Shown one piece after another: positions 10,705-16,403 of a stretch of DNA of 64,000 nt (position 1 is its first letter; the number at the start of each line of letters is the position of its first letter). Below the pieces are notes generated by a model. It was not told the DNA's origin. It ran no database searches and was given only the letters and a program-made list of their open reading frames with translations. The stretch is from Escherichia coli. Lineage in GTDB: Bacteria; Pseudomonadota; Gammaproteobacteria; Enterobacterales; Enterobacteriaceae. Location of the stretch: NCBI RefSeq assembly GCF_003018115.1, contig NZ_CP027457.1, one strand, 5' to 3'. The translations under genes were made by a program, and so were the position numbers.

Positions 10705-11685
10705 ATGAACGCAATAATATCGCCTGATTATTACTATGTTCTTACCGTTGCTGGTCAGTCTAATGCCATGGCGTATGGCGAAGGACTGCCATTACCGGAC
10801 AGGGAAGATGCGCCTCATCCAAGAATTAAACAATTAGCGAGATTTGCGCATACGCATCCCGGAGGCCCGTCATGTCACTTTAACGACATTATTCCACTGA
10901 CTCACTGCCCACACGATGTTCAGGATATGCAGAGTTATCACCATCCTCTGGCAACGAATCATCAAACACAGTACGGCACCGTTGGCCAGGCACTGCATAT
11001 TGCACGGAAATTACTGCCCTTTATTCCTGATAACGCAGGGGTTCTCATCGTTCCATGTTGCCGTGGCGGATCGGCTTTTACCGCGGGCAGCGAGGGGACA
11101 TATTCAGAACGGCACGGAGCCAGCCATGATGCTTGTCGTTGGGGAACGGATACTCCGCTGTACCAGGATTTAGTCAGCAGAACGCGAGCCGCACTGGCAA
11201 AAAATCCGCAGAACAAATTCCTCGGCGTATGCTGGATGCAAGGCGAATTTGACTTAATGACCAGTGACTACGCGTCACACCCTCAACACTTTAATCATAT
11301 GGTTGAAGCCTTTCGTAGGGATCTAAAACAATACCATTCTCAGCTGAATAATATTACTGACGCGCCGTGGTTTTGCGGCGATACCACCTGGTACTGGAAA
11401 GAAAATTTCCCTCATGCGTATGAAGCTATTTATGGCAATTATCAAAATAATGTTTTAGCCAATATTATTTTCGTCGACTTCCAGCAACAAGGTGAAAGAG
11501 GACTGACGAACGCGCCTGATGAAGATCCGGACGATTTAAGCACGGGATATTACGGTTCAGCGTACCGGTCACCGGAGAACTGGACGACGGCACTGCGAAG
11601 CAGTCATTTCAGCGCGGCAGCCCGTCGGGGGATTATTTCTGACAAGTTTGTAGAAGCAATTTTGCAGTTTTGGCGCGAAAGGTGA
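10705..11685 (+). CDS. nanS: 9-O-acetyl-N-acetylneuraminate esterase NanS (SGNH hydrolase)
   Basis: Start MNAIISPDYYYVLTVAGQSNAMAYG, 326 aa; GQSN block typical of SGNH esterases. Confidence 0.88.
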   Translation: MNAIISPDYYYVLTVAGQSNAMAYGEGLPLPDREDAPHPRIKQLARFAHTHPGGPSCHFNDIIPLTHCPHDVQDMQSYHHPLATNHQTQYGTVGQALHIARKLLPFIPDNAGVLIVPCCRGGSAFTAGSEGTYSERHGASHDACRWGTDTPLYQDLVSRTRAALAKNPQNKFLGVCWMQGEFDLMTSDYASHPQHFNHMVEAFRRDLKQYHSQLNNITDAPWFCGDTTWYWKENFPHAYEAIYGNYQNNVLANIIFVDFQQQGERGLTNAPDEDPDDLSTGYYGSAYRSPENWTTALRSSHFSAAARRGIISDKFVEAILQFWRER

Positions 11686-11839
11686 GCGTTCATTAATTTG
11701 ATTTATTCGCATCCATCAGCGCTTTTAACTCCTCCGGCGTAAACGGTGGTTTGCGTCGGTGCAACATCGCATGGCAATTAGGGCACACAGGCAGCAAAAA
11801 AACAAATGAGATCAAAGTAATATATCTTCACTTGCAGGC

Positions 11840-12769
11840 TTGAACAGCAGAAAATTTGCGAGCATGATCGCAATTATTTCACTGCCAGGGATATCAATGG
11901 CTTCCAGTAAATCGCTACAGCAGGCAATTGCCAACATAAAAATCTGGCACAAGGGTGAACAGCGCGCGCCGCATAAGCCATTGTTATTGCTATACGTATT
12001 AGCGGGATACCTGAATGGACATCCACGCCTTTTCGATTATGGCTCGGAAATCTACGAACCTCTGCACAGTTTACTGGAACGTTTTGGGCCACAGCGTTCA
12101 CAGTACCGACCTGATATGCCGTTCTGGCGATTACAAGGCGACGGATTCTGGCAATTACACAATGCCGAGCTTTGCTCAACAGCAGGGAGCAGCCGACAAC
12201 CGCCAGTGAAGGAACTGAACGAATACCACGTTGCAGGCGGTTTCGATGAACAGCACTACGCCCTGGTAACCGGCAATAAAAAACTCATTAATACTCTGGC
12301 ACAACAGATACTCGAAGCGCACTTCACCGAGAGTATTCAGGAAGAAATCGCTGACGAGTTGGGTTTTGACCTCCAGCAAATCCGTAAGCAACGCGACCCG
12401 TTATTTCGCAGACTTGTATTACGCGCCTATAACTACCAGTGCGCGATATGTGGCTTTAATATGCGCCACGATGACACTACCGTCGCGCTGGAAGCGGCAC
12501 ATATAAAATGGAAACAGCACGGCGGTCTTTGTGAAATTCCTAATGGCCTGGCGCTTTGCGCAATTCACCATAAAGCCTTTGATAAAGGATCGATTGGCCT
12601 GGACGAAAATATGCGGGTACTGGTATCAGATGCGGTAAACGGCGGAGGGATCGTTGAGAGATTATTCTGGGATTTTGACGGGAAAACTATTGCGTTACCA
12701 CAGGTGCGTAAAAATTACCCTTTTGAGGGGTTTGTAGAGTGGCATCGGAAAGAGGTTTTTAGGGGGTGA
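11840..12769 (+). CDS. HNH-motif endonuclease with an uncharacterised N-terminal domain (possible modification-dependent restriction-type nuclease)
   Basis: 309-aa ORF; C-terminal YQCAICGF...AAHIKW...LCAIHHKAFDKG is a Cys/His HNH-type motif. An alternative start MASSKSLQQ at 11897 has an AGGGA RBS. Family assignment of the N-terminal domain is not possible by eye. Confidence 0.7.
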   Translation: MNSRKFASMIAIISLPGISMASSKSLQQAIANIKIWHKGEQRAPHKPLLLLYVLAGYLNGHPRLFDYGSEIYEPLHSLLERFGPQRSQYRPDMPFWRLQGDGFWQLHNAELCSTAGSSRQPPVKELNEYHVAGGFDEQHYALVTGNKKLINTLAQQILEAHFTESIQEEIADELGFDLQQIRKQRDPLFRRLVLRAYNYQCAICGFNMRHDDTTVALEAAHIKWKQHGGLCEIPNGLALCAIHHKAFDKGSIGLDENMRVLVSDAVNGGGIVERLFWDFDGKTIALPQVRKNYPFEGFVEWHRKEVFRG

Positions 12770-12810
12770 GATTGATAACTATCGCAGTATGTTCAATATT
12801 GCTGACATAA

Positions 12811-12993
12811 TCAGTGCAGGATCTTGCCGCTAGTTTACAACTCGCCTTCGATAGCGGCGCAAAACGAGTTCTGTTGCCGATATCCTCGGCTATGGATATT
12901 CCAACAGTTCCGGCAGAGTTGTTTACCAAGTTTCAGGTAAGTTTTTTCTCAGAACCGGTTGATGCGGTTTATAAGGCGCTGGATGTGAATTAA
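12811..12993 (+). pseudogene. Remnant encoding the C-terminal ~60 aa of a Lon-like protease domain (BrxL/Lon-type)
   Basis: Frame opens just after a TAA at 12808-12810 and reads ...SGAKRVLLPISSAMDIPTVPAELFTKFQVSFFSEPVDAVYKALDVN*, which resembles the extreme C-terminus of Lon proteases (...GIKTVLIP...IP...V...EVL..AL). No upstream body of the gene is present. Confidence 0.5.
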
Positions 12994-13326
12994 CACATTC
13001 CTCAGCTTATTTACAAAAGGATTATTCCCATTTGATATAATATCAGTGCCAATTTACTTTTTTCAATGAAATATATCTCGGCTAAATAACAATAAAACTT
13101 ATCGCTAATGGATTAAATAAACAATTTTCTAATTCATTTCACCACCTTTGATATAGAAATTGATGGTGTTGTCGTTGCCATTGCTTATGGTGATGATAAA
13201 ATCCACGTTTCTGGATCGTTGCGTAGAAAATCATCACTGCCTTGATATTTTGATGCGATATAATCATACCGTTCCGTAGTACCAATTTCAATTTCAGGCT
13301 AAACCCCAACATTAAAAAAAATTAGA

Positions 13327-13375
13327 GTTATTCACTGATTATATTATATTATCAATAATATAATCAGTGAATAAC
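13327..13375 (-). terminator. Perfect 21-bp inverted repeat (7-nt loop) downstream of the 682-aa ORF, followed on the minus strand by a T8 run; probable intrinsic terminator
   Basis: GTTATTCACTGATTATATTAT / ATAATATAATCAGTGAATAAC arms read directly; T-run lies about 6 nt past the stem on the minus strand. Confidence 0.55.
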
Positions 13376-13397
13376 ATGGACTATATAATAAATTGCT

Positions 13398-15446
13398 CTA
13401 ATCATTTCCCTTACGAATATATGGGCCAAAAGCCCAAGAATCATAATAAGGGTGATGGACTAATTTTTCATTAAATCGAACACTATAAGTTAATTTTTTT
13501 ATATTTTTACGTACAGCATTAATACTGGGCAAAGAGGAAAGATAATCTATAAACTTATCGATAGTGATTTCCCCTTCGCAACACTCAAACCCATCAATGA
13601 TATTTTTCGCCATTTTTCCATTTTCATTTGTTTGATATATCACTCCAGGTATTCGTTGAAAAAAACTAGATAATGCATATTTGTCCGCTACATATGTATC
13701 ATCCACATGATATTTCCCACCGAGCATAGTTGTAGTAACAATAAGCTTATACACACCTTTGGGTTGCCATGTTGATGGTAGTTCGAATTCTTTAATGATC
13801 ACATCAAGATGATTAAGATAATGTTCAGAAATTCGATTTATTTGTTGAAAATAAGAACGCATAAATTTATTATTATGATCATGTATTAATGAGCTATCTC
13901 CAACGATGTTACACACTTGCTGATAGTACTTACCATAATATATTGGTTGACCATTTGATTTTAGTTCTGTAAAAATCAAAAAATCATCCAGGAGAATCAC
14001 GCAATCGCACTGATAATTAGCATGAGCATCAATTGAAGAAGCTTTAATCCCCGCATCACGAACTTGTTTTATAAATTGTTGCTCATGAAATCGCCCTTTA
14101 CTTGCTTGAGAAATTTTTTTGGAACCAAATAATGACATTAGAGAGCGAGTCACTGAGCTATTTGCTATTAATGCAGGCATTAAGCATAAACCGTCCATAC
14201 AGGGAATAAATGGGCAATCATTAAGATCATGTGATTTTGAATTGAAGGTAAAATAATCTATCAGTTTTTTTGCTGCATCCGCTGCAATCCCCTTACGTTG
14301 AAAGAATGATAACCAACTCTCACGGCTTTTTATGATCAGCCAGCGATCCAACTGTAGGGGTATAGGTTTTGTCGATGAAAATCTTTTGCTCATTTCTTCT
14401 TTAGATAACTCGACTAAACATTGATAAGCGTGCACCCAATTAAATAATGATATATTCCCATATTCTTCATGAAGGTCATCAGGAGACATATTTTCCAACT
14501 CGCTTAGATGAAATGAGCTAAAAACGCCATCAGAATTTAAGTAAGATGGCATATGATCCTTTACCCAACTATTTAGATGAAAATGTTTGTTACTAAATTC
14601 ATGAACTTCGCTATATAGATGTGACGCTCTCATCATTAGTCTATTTCTTGCAATCTCATAATCTCGGTATAAACAAAAACTATCAACCTCAAGAGAGTAA
14701 ATGTTATTATCCAATTTTGTAAATACTGCACTACTTAGTCTGAAAAAGTCTCTTACTCTGCTTAATGAGTCAAAAACATTCCACTCATTAAGGTACCCTC
14801 CCATTGAAAGCAAGGTTTGTTTATTCACACAAGAAGTTAGTTTCAATGGCCCATGAGTCCGTAAATAAGAAAATATTCTTCCGGTGTAATTGGCTACCTC
14901 ATCAAATGCCCTATCGATAACTCGAAAATATTCGATATCAGGTTCAGCATGAATATTAATATTTTCAGAAACGATAAATAATGGAAAAATCCTCTTCATT
15001 TTTTTAGGATCATTGACCACAACCAAGGATGATAATGATGATAAAAACATCTCACAAAACATGATGAGATTAAGTATTAATGCATGTGATTTTTTTGTAT
15101 TTTTACGCCAAATACCAGCACATTTTGTAGCCGCAAAGAAAGAATTATTTATATCATGCATAATTTTACATTGACTCTCGAACTCAGAGATTAGTTCAAT
15201 GTTATCAGGAAATGAGTTTACTAGCTCATTAATACATTTTTTGAATGTATTGTTATACTCAACTTCAGTCTGAACTGAAAATCTATTATAATAGATGGAA
15301 GATATTCTCAGCACATCCAAGGCGATATCTATACTAATATCATCTCTTTTTATGTACTCACAAAAAAAAGAACAAAACTGTTTCGGGTCGTTAGCAAGAT
15401 TACTAATTCTAGTAGTATCATAAACTTTTTCCATTTTTCCATACAT
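13398..15446 (-). CDS. Orphan AT-rich 682-aa protein of unknown function; candidate defence or nuclease protein with a possible PD-(D/E)XK-like motif
   Basis: Uninterrupted 2 kb ORF with RBS AGGA before the ATG; composition visibly far more AT-rich than flanking core genes; no Walker A, HNH or other motif I recognise except E~455 ... D~481 ... E494-L-K496 (QCDCVILLDDFLIFTELK). Confidence 0.75.
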   Translation of the reverse strand: MYGKMEKVYDTTRISNLANDPKQFCSFFCEYIKRDDISIDIALDVLRISSIYYNRFSVQTEVEYNNTFKKCINELVNSFPDNIELISEFESQCKIMHDINNSFFAATKCAGIWRKNTKKSHALILNLIMFCEMFLSSLSSLVVVNDPKKMKRIFPLFIVSENINIHAEPDIEYFRVIDRAFDEVANYTGRIFSYLRTHGPLKLTSCVNKQTLLSMGGYLNEWNVFDSLSRVRDFFRLSSAVFTKLDNNIYSLEVDSFCLYRDYEIARNRLMMRASHLYSEVHEFSNKHFHLNSWVKDHMPSYLNSDGVFSSFHLSELENMSPDDLHEEYGNISLFNWVHAYQCLVELSKEEMSKRFSSTKPIPLQLDRWLIIKSRESWLSFFQRKGIAADAAKKLIDYFTFNSKSHDLNDCPFIPCMDGLCLMPALIANSSVTRSLMSLFGSKKISQASKGRFHEQQFIKQVRDAGIKASSIDAHANYQCDCVILLDDFLIFTELKSNGQPIYYGKYYQQVCNIVGDSSLIHDHNNKFMRSYFQQINRISEHYLNHLDVIIKEFELPSTWQPKGVYKLIVTTTMLGGKYHVDDTYVADKYALSSFFQRIPGVIYQTNENGKMAKNIIDGFECCEGEITIDKFIDYLSSLPSINAVRKNIKKLTYSVRFNEKLVHHPYYDSWAFGPYIRKGND

Positions 15447-16123
15447 CCTATTGTCTAAATTACTATAAAACTAGCCACTTAACTAATAATTATAAATTTC
15501 ATCTTTTACACCTTGCATTTTTATAACCAATGAAATCTACAACAAGCAACTGATGGATAATCCGATATTGGTCGCATTTAATGGCATGGTAGCAAAGTTT
15601 TCATCACATACCTCCTTTGCACCAGAATAAACGCCAGAGACCTGAAATTGCGAGTACACTACAGAAATTGTACTGCCGGTCCCATCAGCATAAAACCATA
15701 GTTACACAGGTAATCATCATTATTCGCCAAGATAATAAATATTATTCGGTAGAATAGCGTTCTCAGGTGGTCAGTAAAATTGTCTTCAACAAGATGTCTG
15801 CGCATCTCGTCTGCTAGCCCTACATAACTGCTCTCGACCGAAACTATTTATTGAATGTTCACCAAGGTGGGCGTGGAGACAAAATGACGTCTTTTGATAT
15901 TAGCTACCTGAGCCACATGGTCAAAACGTTCAAGTAGCATAGCGAAACCACCCTGCCCACGTAATGTGGACGATGCAGCTTCCAGCCAGAGCAAACTTGG
16001 GACCATCGACTACAAAATGAAGAATACTGAACTGCTTTTCTGGCAGGCCTATATACTGCACGGATATGGGTGATTTCAGGCACAAAAAAAGCCGCCCTTA
16101 AGCGACTCGATTTGCATACGGTG

Positions 16124-16208
16124 TGGTGCCGAAGGCCGGACTCGAACCGGCACGTATTTCTACGGTTGATTTTGAATCAACTGCGTCTACCGATTTCGCC
16201 ACTTCGGC
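16124..16208 (-). tRNA. leuX: tRNA-Leu (leuX-type, CAA anticodon), 85 nt ending CCA
   Basis: Reverse complement reads GCCGAAGTGGCGAAATCGGTAGACGCAGTTGATTCAAAATCAACCGTAGAAATACGTGCCGGTTCGAGTCCGGCCTTCGGCACCA; type II tRNA with long variable arm. Confidence 0.9.
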
Positions 16209-16403
16209 ACTGAAGAGGTATGCGGAAAACGTTGTGGATTATACCTGTCGCACGCCACCATGCAAGCGCCAGCTTGCTCGCACCTCGCTAAGTGCTGAAA
16301 TTTTCAGCATTGCATACAGCGATGTGTAACCTTTGTCACACTCCAGGCACCCCGCCCTGCCATGCTCTACACTTCCCAGACAACACCAGAGAAGGACCAA
16401 AAA

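What the first reader, a model, noticed from the sequence alone, without database searches (positions are those of the whole stretch)
12811..12993. Lon-like protease C-terminal remnant directly downstream of the HNH gene
Seen in sequence: a 60-codon frame that begins right after an in-frame TAA and ends ...GAKRVLLPISSAMDIPTVPAELFTKFQVSFFSEPVDAVYKALDVN*. It has the pattern of the extreme C-terminus of Lon-family proteases, with no upstream body of the gene. Inference: it is the scar of a displaced gene; BREX BrxL is one Lon-like candidate, but the family cannot be decided from 60 residues.
Basis: partly seen in the sequence, partly recalled or inferred. Interest (0 to 1): 0.5.

Follow-up and report, generated by a model that had tools for sequence, protein, structure and literature searches.

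The report
Decayed BrxL tail: BREX deletion scar
This is a dead 215-base leftover of brxL, the last gene of a BREX anti-phage system. About 14.6 kb of that system was deleted beside the leuX tRNA gene of E. coli, and the same scar sits in about 1 in 15 complete E. coli genomes, so it is real but ordinary.

Summary
Window 12811-12993 is a 60-codon frame preceded by TAA (12808-12810), with the quoted sequence.

The family can be decided. The peptide matches only BrxL models, end to end with their last 59 positions: NCBIfam TIGR02653, E 2e-24, and PADLOC BrxL, E 6e-19. Generic Pfam Lon_C gives only E 0.24.

E. coli ECOR29 and ATCC 43896 carry, at the same site, PT-restriction enzyme, membrane protein, brxA, brxB, brxC, pglX, pglZ, brxL, then variable genes and leuX. 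Relative to ECOR29, 14,571 bp are missing here.

The remnant is longer than reported (12779-12993). Bases 12780-12819 are brxL nt 1815-1854. The TAA is a Lys615-to-stop mutation. A 57-nt in-frame deletion (codons 619-637) lies between near-identical 11-nt repeats.

Downstream lies a frameshifted 5' stub of a PLD-like gene (13092-13276), then an unrelated 682-aa gene.

The identical junction occurs in 360 of 5,426 complete E. coli genomes, UTI89 included. All 12 sampled alleles share these lesions, and 2 carry a second stop. RefSeq already marks it as a partial pseudogene.

Verdict: a non-functional BREX-1 deletion scar in the known leuX defence hotspot. Interest is low.

The parts
11897..12769 (+). 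Left neighbour, intact: an EcoWI-type (SBD-HNH) restriction endonuclease that binds phosphorothioated DNA. This is the 'HNH gene' of the finding.
   Evidence: NCBIfam NF045808, E 2e-129. It is 97.9% identical over 290 aa to the ECOR29 protein and matches the E. coli W protein at 283 of 290 residues. EcoWI biochemistry is described in PMC7461809.
12770..12778 (+). Tail of the conserved left flank (GATTGATAA). It is the last stretch shared with loci that carry BREX, or McrBC (E. coli W), at this site.
   Evidence: Sequence comparison of 10 loci.
12779..12993 (+). brxL 3' remnant, a pseudogene of 215 nt. It consists of a junction base, then brxL nt 1815-1854, then brxL nt 1912-2085 including the native stop.
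   Evidence: tblastn places ECOR29 BrxL aa 606-694 on window 12781-12990, E 3.8e-28. Smith-Waterman alignment. Identity is 33/40 and 163/174 nt. BrxL HMM hits.
12808..12810 (+). In-frame TAA, a nonsense mutation of BrxL Lys615 (AAA in intact alleles).
   Evidence: Alignment to intact brxL. Present in all 12 scar alleles sampled.
12819..12820 (+). Site of a 57-nt in-frame internal deletion (brxL nt 1855-1911, codons 619-637, EQMVVLGSMTLGGVINPVQ). In intact alleles this stretch lies between the direct repeats CCAGTACAGGA and CCGGTACAGGA.
   Evidence: Shared by all 12 alleles.
12814..12993 (+). The 59-codon GTG ORF that gene callers pick up. RefSeq flags it as a partial pseudogene ('hypothetical protein' or 'peptidase', missing N-terminus).
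12994..13091 (+). Former spacer between brxL and the PLD-like gene (29% GC).
   Evidence: Collinear with ATCC 43896 downstream of brxL. GC content.
13092..13276 (+). 5' remnant of a PLD-like gene. It covers aa 1-62 of a 449-aa protein, spread over three frames by two frameshifts. Homology ends at 13276.
   Evidence: tblastn. Pfam PLDc_2 on the intact ATCC 43896 protein.
13277..16071 (-). Unrelated AT-rich cassette that replaces the rest of the PLD gene. It holds a hairpin terminator (13327-13375), a 682-aa orphan gene (13398-15446, - strand) and an unannotated spacer.
16124..16208 (-). tRNA-Leu(CAA), leuX, the anchor of the defence hotspot.
   Evidence: ARAGORN, Rfam.

Best explanation
Window 12779-12993 is a non-functional, decaying 3' fragment of brxL, the Lon-related last gene of a type 1 BREX phage-exclusion operon.

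Inferred ancestral arrangement (still present in ECOR29 and ATCC 43896): nanS, PT-dependent restriction enzyme, membrane protein, brxA, brxB, brxC, pglX, pglZ, brxL, PLD-like gene, then variable genes and leuX.

One illegitimate deletion of about 14.6 kb joined the base 9 nt after the restriction enzyme's stop codon to brxL nt about 1814. It removed the membrane-protein gene, five BREX genes and 87% of brxL. This is shown by synteny and by a single shared junction.

The stub then, or possibly before, acquired a nonsense codon (K615*) and a 57-nt repeat-mediated in-frame deletion. In some lineages it also acquired a second nonsense codon.

Separately, the body of the downstream PLD-like gene was replaced by a cassette carrying a 682-aa orphan gene. 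That left a roughly 500-bp doubly truncated relic.

The scar haplotype then spread, vertically and by recombination across the conserved flanks, to about 6.6% of complete E. coli genomes. It has no function of its own. At most it is passively transcribed as the 3' trailer of the restriction-enzyme mRNA; this last point is inferred.
For: - Family: the peptide matches only BrxL models, over their last 59 positions (TIGR02653 617-675/675, E 2.3e-24; PADLOC BrxL 622-680/680, E 5.9e-19).
- DNA identity: 93-94% to intact brxL 3' ends in E. coli, and brxL is what it hits on plasmids of several genera.
- Synteny: ECOR29 and ATCC 43896 have the complete BREX-1 operon between the same PT-restriction gene and leuX. 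Flanks are 96-98% identical up to 12778 and from 16072/16124.
- Absence: no other BREX gene is in the window.
- Size: 14,571 bp are missing relative to ECOR29.
- Single event: the same junction occurs in 360 of 5,426 genomes. All 12 sampled alleles share the junction, the TAA and the 57-nt deletion.
- Decay: 2 of 12 alleles have an extra stop at 12952. Polymorphisms are 5 synonymous, 6 missense and 1 nonsense. Nucleotide diversity (0.013-0.015) is no lower than in the adjacent PLD stub (0.018).
- No translation signal: there is no Shine-Dalgarno-like sequence before GTG 12814 (CTGACATAATCAGTG).
- Too little of the domain: the stub keeps about 70 of the roughly 183 residues of the Lon-like domain (residues 512-693 by alignment to PDB 8EIL and 8EMC).
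- Annotation: RefSeq PGAP marks it 'incomplete; missing N-terminus'.
- Literature: leuX is defence hotspot #37, and BREX in E. coli is found only at hotspots #1 and #37 (PMC10121019; PMC12707154).
Against: - No intact brxL in the E. coli set or in PLSDB is more than 94% identical to the stub, so the direct parent allele was not found.
- The left end of the deletion coincides to the base with the point where BREX-type, McrBC-type and scar-type loci diverge. That is unexpected for a random deletion. The truncation may have arisen during cassette exchange, or in another genome, rather than by simple deletion in situ.
- The ratio of 5 synonymous to 7 non-synonymous changes is too small a sample to prove neutrality.
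- No expression data were available.
Confidence: 0.93

Rival explanations
1. The stub is still a BrxL remnant, but the truncation did not happen by deletion within this lineage's locus. On this reading a truncated fragment (brxL tail, PLD gene and beyond) arrived as the left end of an incoming cassette, or was produced by imprecise cassette exchange at a recombinogenic boundary (…GGTTGATAA). This strain's ancestors need never have had BREX here.
For: The left junction at 12778|12779 is exactly where BREX-type, E. coli W McrBC-type and scar-type loci stop being alike. The scar is linked to at least two different right-hand contexts: the PLD stub plus 682-aa gene in about 339 genomes, and ECOR29-type downstream sequence plus a type II R-M in VCSW7 and CFIAFB20190157. 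It is also linked to different left contexts, nanCMS or Zorya II. Cassettes at this site are therefore clearly being shuffled. No close parent allele was found in E. coli.
Against: No att-like repeat of leuX, integrase or IS end sits at the junction. An imperfect microhomology (TACCGC on the left, TATCGC in brxL) could place an ordinary illegitimate deletion there by chance. BREX-type loci with the same left flank are common, at 481 genomes.
Confidence: 0.2
2. The 59-codon ORF (12814-12993) is a domesticated small protein, for example a BrxL C-terminal peptide that interferes with BrxL ring assembly or has another role.
For: The ORF is open in 10 of 12 sampled alleles and is kept in 360 genomes. 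It is called as a protein in many assemblies. An engineered, much longer 'brxL 3' fragment (807 nt) had global transcriptional effects when overexpressed in Salmonella (PMC9009780).
Against: Two of 12 alleles carry a premature stop 13 codons before the end. There are 6 missense and 1 nonsense changes against 5 synonymous. Diversity is no lower than in flanking junk DNA. The start is GTG without a Shine-Dalgarno sequence, right after a stop. The piece covers only about one third of the Lon-like domain, with an internal 19-residue gap, so it is unlikely to fold. No promoter stands out above the shuffled expectation.
Confidence: 0.02
3. The fragment derives from a different Lon-family gene (canonical Lon, LonB or YcbZ-like, or a Lon-like gene of another defence system), not from BrxL.
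For: There is a weak Pfam Lon_C match (E 0.24). Some databases label the ORF 'ATP-dependent Lon protease' or 'S16 family serine protease'.
Against: Only the BrxL-specific models score significantly. The DNA is 93-94% identical to bona fide brxL adjacent to pglZ at the same locus. Canonical Lon chains in the PDB match full-length BrxL only at E 1e-11 or worse.
Confidence: 0.01
4. The fragment is an assembly or annotation artefact, or part of a longer gene read in another frame.
For: None beyond its short length.
Against: The same sequence and junction occur in 360 independent complete genomes. No longer ORF exists in any frame. There is no Rfam family here.
Confidence: 0.005

Closest known systems
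BrxL, the Lon-related protein of type 1 BREX (NCBIfam TIGR02653; E. coli ECOR29 WP_001193073.1; solved structures 8EMC, 8EMH, 8EIL)
   Same: The stub is collinear with BrxL residues 606-618 and 638-694. It is 93% identical in protein and 94% in DNA over the last 58 codons. It sits at the same chromosomal position and in the same orientation as intact brxL in other E. coli.
   Different: Only 10% of the gene remains. The N-terminal and ATPase parts and about two thirds of the Lon-like domain are gone. An internal stop and a 19-codon deletion are present. No brxA, brxB, brxC, pglX or pglZ accompanies it.
Canonical Lon protease S16 proteolytic domain (Pfam PF05362 Lon_C)
   Same: There is distant similarity to the last roughly 45 positions of the domain (profile positions 158-200 of 205).
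   Different: E 0.24, below the gathering threshold. The segments that would hold the Ser and Lys of the catalytic dyad are missing: upstream of residue 606 and within the deleted codons 619-637. The placement of the dyad is an inference from motif position.
Engineered 'brxL 3' remnant in Salmonella StySA/BREX (Zaworski et al. 2022, PMC9009780)
   Same: It is a C-terminal BrxL fragment left after removal of the 5' part of the gene, in a BREX locus in the leuX island.
   Different: That fragment is 807 nt, contains the whole Lon_C domain, is driven by a strong cat promoter, and had phenotypes. The natural stub here is 215 nt, interrupted, and has no evident promoter or ribosome-binding site.
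Other natural brxL remnants in E. coli (for example strains E200086 and WP4-S18-ESBL-08)
   Same: They are 3' brxL fragments annotated 'S16 family serine protease, missing N-terminus', with a PglZ ('alkaline phosphatase') fragment nearby. BREX decay scars therefore recur.
   Different: They lie in a different island (near setC/yicL), have different breakpoints (330 or 228 nt retained), and were cut by IS3/IS911 insertion rather than by a clean deletion.
E. coli defence hotspot #37 at leuX (Hochhauser et al. 2023, PMC10121019; review PMC12707154)
   Same: Same locus. BREX is a known occupant, and cassettes are known to be exchanged there.
   Different: Those surveys catalogue intact systems. 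In the passages read, this particular scar is not mentioned: a term search of PMC10121019 found no occurrence of 'remnant' or 'pseudogene'.

Membership tests
BrxL (BREX type 1 Lon-related protein) | Significant match to a BrxL-specific sequence profile | tested here: met
   TIGR02653 E 2.3e-24, positions 617-675 of 675. PADLOC BrxL E 5.9e-19, positions 622-680 of 680. The 85.8-bit score is far below the 628-bit whole-protein cut-off, so it qualifies as a fragment only.
BrxL (BREX type 1 Lon-related protein) | Full-length architecture of about 690 aa, with N-terminal region, ATPase core and C-terminal Lon-like domain | tested here: not met
   Only residues 606-618 and 638-694 of 694 are represented. 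The Lon-like domain alone spans residues 512-693.
BrxL (BREX type 1 Lon-related protein) | Uninterrupted reading frame | tested here: not met
   K615 is TAA and 19 codons are deleted internally. A second stop is present in 2 of 12 alleles.
BrxL (BREX type 1 Lon-related protein) | Encoded at the 3' end of a brxA-brxB-brxC-pglX-pglZ-brxL operon | tested here: not met
   tblastn with the ECOR29 BREX proteins finds none of the other five in the 64-kb window. The operon is present at the syntenic site in ECOR29 and ATCC 43896. Ancestry is therefore supported, but current membership is not.
Lon protease, peptidase family S16 | Pfam Lon_C match above the gathering threshold | tested here: not met
   E 0.24, 11.3 bits against a cut-off of 21.1.
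Lon protease, peptidase family S16 | Ser-Lys catalytic dyad | tested here: not met
   The GPS motif (S597 in ECOR29 BrxL numbering) lies upstream of the breakpoint. The segment homologous to the Lon Lys region lies within the deleted codons 619-637. The motif correspondence is my inference from Lon sequence knowledge, not a structural test.
Gene remnant / pseudogene (deletion scar) | Homology to part of a gene that is intact at the orthologous position elsewhere, with disabling lesions and no sign of constraint | tested here: met
   Synteny. Lesions. Diversity is comparable to neighbouring junk DNA. PGAP pseudogene flags. The constraint test has low power, with only 12 segregating sites.

The most novel reading that the evidence does not exclude
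The scar's left edge (…GGTTGATAA|, 12778) may not be a random deletion endpoint. It could be a fixed, recombinogenic cassette boundary at the inner end of the leuX defence hotspot. BREX, McrBC/type I R-M and other cargo are joined to the PT-restriction gene at the very same base. The brxL stub would then be a by-product of an imprecise cassette-swap mechanism that has not been described.
Probability: 0.1. Interest if true: 0.4.

Novelty: already known. Interest (0 to 1): 0.13.

Why it matters
The practical value is modest.

- It shows that this strain, like about 6.6% of complete E. coli genomes including UTI89 and O145 EHEC, carries a fossil of a lost BREX-1 system. BREX is therefore absent at this locus here.
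- In the complete-genome set the scar (360 genomes) is about as common as a brxL body segment that the scar lacks (349 genomes). That is a useful caution for defence-system censuses and for annotation. The 59-aa ORF is variously labelled 'hypothetical protein', 'peptidase', 'S16 family serine protease' or 'ATP-dependent Lon protease', and it should be labelled as a brxL pseudogene.
- The single shared junction is a convenient marker for tracing how cassettes are lost and swapped at defence hotspot #37.
- It does not reveal a new mechanism.

Tried and rejected
- Generic Lon assignment: Pfam Lon_C is not significant. Rejected in favour of BrxL.
- 'Filler' DNA at 12779-12813: BLAST saw no homology, and I first treated it as unknown sequence. 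A gapped local alignment showed it is brxL nt 1815-1854 followed by a 57-nt deletion.
- leuX att repeat at the junction: none found with up to 3 mismatches. No meaningful direct or inverted repeats flank the scar.
- RNA element: Rfam finds only leuX in 11500-16400.
- Promoter and terminator scan: promoter-like sites (9 against 5.6 expected) are not clearly above the shuffled expectation, and none is specific to the ORF. The only strong hairpin (13327-13375) serves the 682-aa gene on the minus strand.
- Antisense ORFs (56 aa at 12759-12929 and 57 aa at 13139-13312): no Pfam match.
- Search for the parent allele: the E. coli genomes and PLSDB plasmids give at most 94% identity. The protein search with the 60-mer returned only short ORFs, mostly from E. 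coli, and no full-length BrxL.
- Selection test on the ORF: 12 alleles give 5 synonymous, 6 missense and 1 nonsense change. This is consistent with decay but underpowered.
- 682-aa neighbour: no Pfam, NCBIfam or PDB hit. The AlphaFold model from a 7-sequence alignment was too poor (pLDDT 53.8) to justify a fold search.
- Small ORFs between the 682-aa gene and leuX: no family match.

Full report
**Observation**

There is a TAA at 12808-12810. The frame 12811-12993 translates to SVQDLAASLQLAFDSGAKRVLLPISSAMDIPTVPAELFTKFQVSFFSEPVDAVYKALDVN*. The mechanical ORF list gives 12814..12993, GTG start, 59 aa. The only other ORFs overlapping it are a 38-aa ORF on the + strand and a 56-aa ORF on the - strand. 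It lies 42 nt downstream of the stop codon (12767-12769) of an HNH-domain gene. An ORF of this size is not remarkable in itself, so the case rests on homology.

**Family**

It can.
- Pfam's generic Lon_C model is not significant (E 0.24).
- The two BrxL-specific profiles match strongly, and exactly over their C-terminal ends. NCBIfam TIGR02653 ('protease Lon-related BREX system protein BrxL') matches positions 617-675 of 675 at E 2.3e-24. PADLOC BrxL matches positions 622-680 of 680 at E 5.9e-19.
- No other family is hit.
- The HNH gene is NF045808, a restriction endonuclease that binds phosphorothioated DNA (E 2e-129). It matches the protein at the same locus of E. coli W at 283 of 290 residues. 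This is the EcoWI type of SBD-HNH enzyme characterised in PMC7461809.

**Genomic setting**

The window is an ordinary E. coli chromosome segment: fim, nanC, nanM, nanS, a short variable region, leuX, ahr, yjgR, lptGF and onward. It is 99.95% identical to strain F8111-1SC3. leuX is at 16124-16208 on the minus strand. This is defence hotspot #37 of Hochhauser et al. 2023, described as the most highly occupied of the 41 E. coli defence islands. In E. coli, BREX is found only at hotspots #1 and #37 (PMC10121019; PMC12707154).

**What used to be there**

A megablast of 12770-13400 against 5,426 complete E. coli genomes finds 601 genomes.

In ECOR29 and ATCC 43896 the matched sequence is the 3' end of an intact brxL. 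The locus there reads: nanC, nanM, partial nanS, an HNH stub, PT-restriction enzyme, a 332-aa membrane protein (minus strand), brxA, brxB, brxC, pglX, pglZ, brxL, variable genes, leuX, ahr.

The window is collinear with these loci at 97-98% up to 12778, and again from 16072/16124 onward. None of the membrane protein, BrxA, BrxB, BrxC, PglX or PglZ is encoded anywhere in the 64-kb window (tblastn). Relative to ECOR29, 14,571 bp are missing.

**Anatomy of the scar**

BLAST placed the right-hand homology at 12814 and left 35 nt (12779-12813) unexplained. A gapped local alignment resolved this.
- Bases 12780-12819 are brxL nt 1815-1854, with 33 of 40 identical.
- They are followed directly by brxL nt 1912-2085, with 163 of 174 identical.
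- The missing 57 nt (codons 619-637, EQMVVLGSMTLGGVINPVQ) lie, in intact alleles, between the near-identical 11-mers CCAGTACAGGA and CCGGTACAGGA. This is the signature of a repeat-mediated slip.
- tblastn independently aligns BrxL residues 606-694 to 12781-12990 (E 3.8e-28).

The remnant is therefore 12779-12993: 215 nt, or 10% of the 2,085-nt gene. The deletion junction is at 12778|12779, 9 nt after the stop of the PT-restriction gene. Only an imperfect microhomology is visible there (TACCGC on the left parent, TATCGC in brxL).

**Downstream**

Bases 12994-13091 correspond to the spacer that follows brxL in ATCC 43896. Bases 13092-13276 encode residues 1-62 of that strain's 449-aa PLD-like protein (Pfam PLDc_2), but spread over three reading frames by two frameshifts. 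Homology stops at 13276.

From there to about 16071 lies an unrelated AT-rich cassette of 30-35% GC. It holds a perfect 21-nt inverted repeat with a T-run, which acts as a terminator for the minus strand. It also holds a 682-aa orphan gene on the minus strand.

The brxL tail, spacer and PLD head thus form a roughly 500-bp relic truncated at both ends. A third scar lies to the left: 11696-11797 (minus strand) is the last 34 codons of a 216-aa HNH endonuclease that is intact in other strains.

**Distribution and history**

A 160-nt query spanning the junction is fully covered in 360 of 5,426 genomes (6.6%). These include UTI89, APEC strains, O145 EHEC and O169:H41 ETEC. In all, 1,318 genomes have the PT-restriction gene end.

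For comparison, 481 genomes have the BREX-type left junction. 349 genomes have at least 80% of a brxL body segment (nt 1605-1905 of the ECOR29 gene), almost all of which the scar lacks. The scar is therefore about as common as the gene.

Twelve scar alleles from diverse strains all share the junction, the K615 stop and the 57-nt deletion. That argues for one founding event.

The scar is nonetheless linked to different neighbours:
- on the left, nanCMS or a type II Zorya system;
- on the right, the PLD stub plus the 682-aa gene (about 339 genomes), or ECOR29-type sequence plus a type II restriction-modification pair.

Flank recombination has therefore moved it between backgrounds.

**Is the ORF alive?**

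The evidence says no.
- Two of 12 alleles carry an additional stop (GAA to TAA at 12952).
- Polymorphisms in the ORF are 5 synonymous, 6 missense and 1 nonsense.
- Nucleotide diversity in the stub (0.013-0.015) is not lower than in the adjacent PLD stub (0.018), and is below that of the functional restriction gene (0.0235).
- There is no Shine-Dalgarno sequence before the GTG, no convincing promoter and no Rfam family.
- By alignment to solved BrxL structures (8EMC, 8EMH; the isolated C-terminal domain 8EIL), the Lon-like domain spans residues 512-693. The stub keeps about 70 of those roughly 183 residues, with a gap in the middle. It lacks the GPS(597) motif region. That this region corresponds to the Lon catalytic Ser is my inference from Lon motifs.
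- RefSeq's PGAP already flags the ORF as 'incomplete; missing N-terminus' under the names 'hypothetical protein' or 'peptidase'. Other pipelines call it 'hypothetical protein' or 'ATP-dependent Lon protease'.

**Comparison with what is known**

The stub descends from BrxL but is not a BrxL. Profile similarity is met. Full architecture, an intact frame and operon context are not.

It is not a canonical Lon fragment.

Natural brxL remnants recur elsewhere. In another island near setC/yicL, 330-nt or 228-nt brxL tails cut by IS3/IS911 sit near a PglZ fragment.

An engineered 807-nt 'brxL remnant in Salmonella had global effects when overexpressed (PMC9009780). That construct retains the whole Lon_C domain and a strong promoter, unlike this stub.

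**What remains unexplained**

1. The left end of the deletion coincides to the base with the point where BREX-type, E. coli W McrBC-type and scar-type loci diverge (…GGTTGATAA|). The E2348/69 type diverges 7 nt earlier. No leuX att copy is there. This could be chance aided by microhomology, or a defined cassette boundary.
2. No intact brxL in the E. coli or plasmid collections is more than 94% identical to the stub, so the parent allele was not found.
3. The 40-nt piece is more diverged (17.5%) than the 174-nt piece (6.3%).

**Verdict**

It is a decaying pseudogene scar of a lost BREX-1 system in a well-known defence hotspot. It is widespread and already flagged as a partial gene in public annotation. 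Interest is low. The only mildly novel thread is the precise reuse of the cassette boundary.

Noticed in passing
window 13398-15446 (- strand): A 682-aa AT-rich (33% GC) orphan gene is the only intact cargo between the scar and leuX. It has no Pfam, NCBIfam or PDB match, and only a weak PADLOC PDC-M29B hit (E 0.0023). The family is narrow: E. coli 99%, Salmonella 75%, and Izhakiella, Xenorhabdus, Pectobacterium and Pantoea at 41-52%, with one member labelled NERD in UniRef. D481, D487, E494 and K496 are invariant, suggesting a PD-(D/E)xK nuclease core. It is a candidate uncharacterised single-gene defence protein. The AlphaFold model was too poor (pLDDT 53.8) for a fold search.
   Followed up: partly
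window 13092-13276 (+): This is a 5' stub (aa 1-62, two frameshifts) of a 449-aa PLD-like gene that follows brxL in ATCC 43896 and O111 strains. It is a second scar, truncated by the 682-aa cassette.
   Followed up: yes
window 11696-11797 (- strand): These are the last 34 codons (100% identical) of a 216-aa HNH endonuclease that is intact in TUM14697, NRZ14408 and E2348/69. About 570 bp are deleted here, making a third scar in the same 2-kb stretch.
   Followed up: yes
window 12770-12779: The sequence …TGAGATTGATAA| is the exact point at which loci carrying BREX, McrBC plus type I R-M (E. coli W) or the scar diverge from one another. The E2348/69 type diverges 7 nt earlier. This looks like a recurrent cassette boundary of unknown mechanism.
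   Followed up: partly
window 11897-12769 (+): The 'HNH gene' is an intact EcoWI-type SBD-HNH restriction enzyme dependent on phosphorothioate modification. It matches the E. coli W protein at 283 of 290 residues. It is present in about 1,318 of 5,426 E. coli genomes as the constant left-hand neighbour of the variable cargo.
   Followed up: partly
window 13327-13375: A perfect 21-nt inverted repeat with a 7-nt loop, followed by a T-run on the minus strand. It is probably the terminator of the 682-aa gene. Some strains (UTI89, O145) have a 5-nt shorter version.
   Followed up: no
L017 7845-8174 and L018 7845-8072 (E. coli E200086 and WP4-S18-ESBL-08): Independent brxL 3' remnants sit beside IS3/IS911 fragments, with a 'alkaline phosphatase' (PglZ-like) fragment upstream, in a different island near setC/yicL. 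BREX decay has therefore happened more than once in E. coli.
   Followed up: partly
L008 8670-12066 (E. coli 13P460A): This BREX operon at the leuX site has brxC split by an IS1A insertion. It is an earlier stage of BREX inactivation at the same locus.
   Followed up: no
window 15447-16123: A 677-bp unannotated spacer lies between the 682-aa gene and leuX. It is conserved at 99% or more in 317 of the 343 genomes that carry it and travels with the 682-aa cassette. Its small ORFs have no family match.
   Followed up: partly
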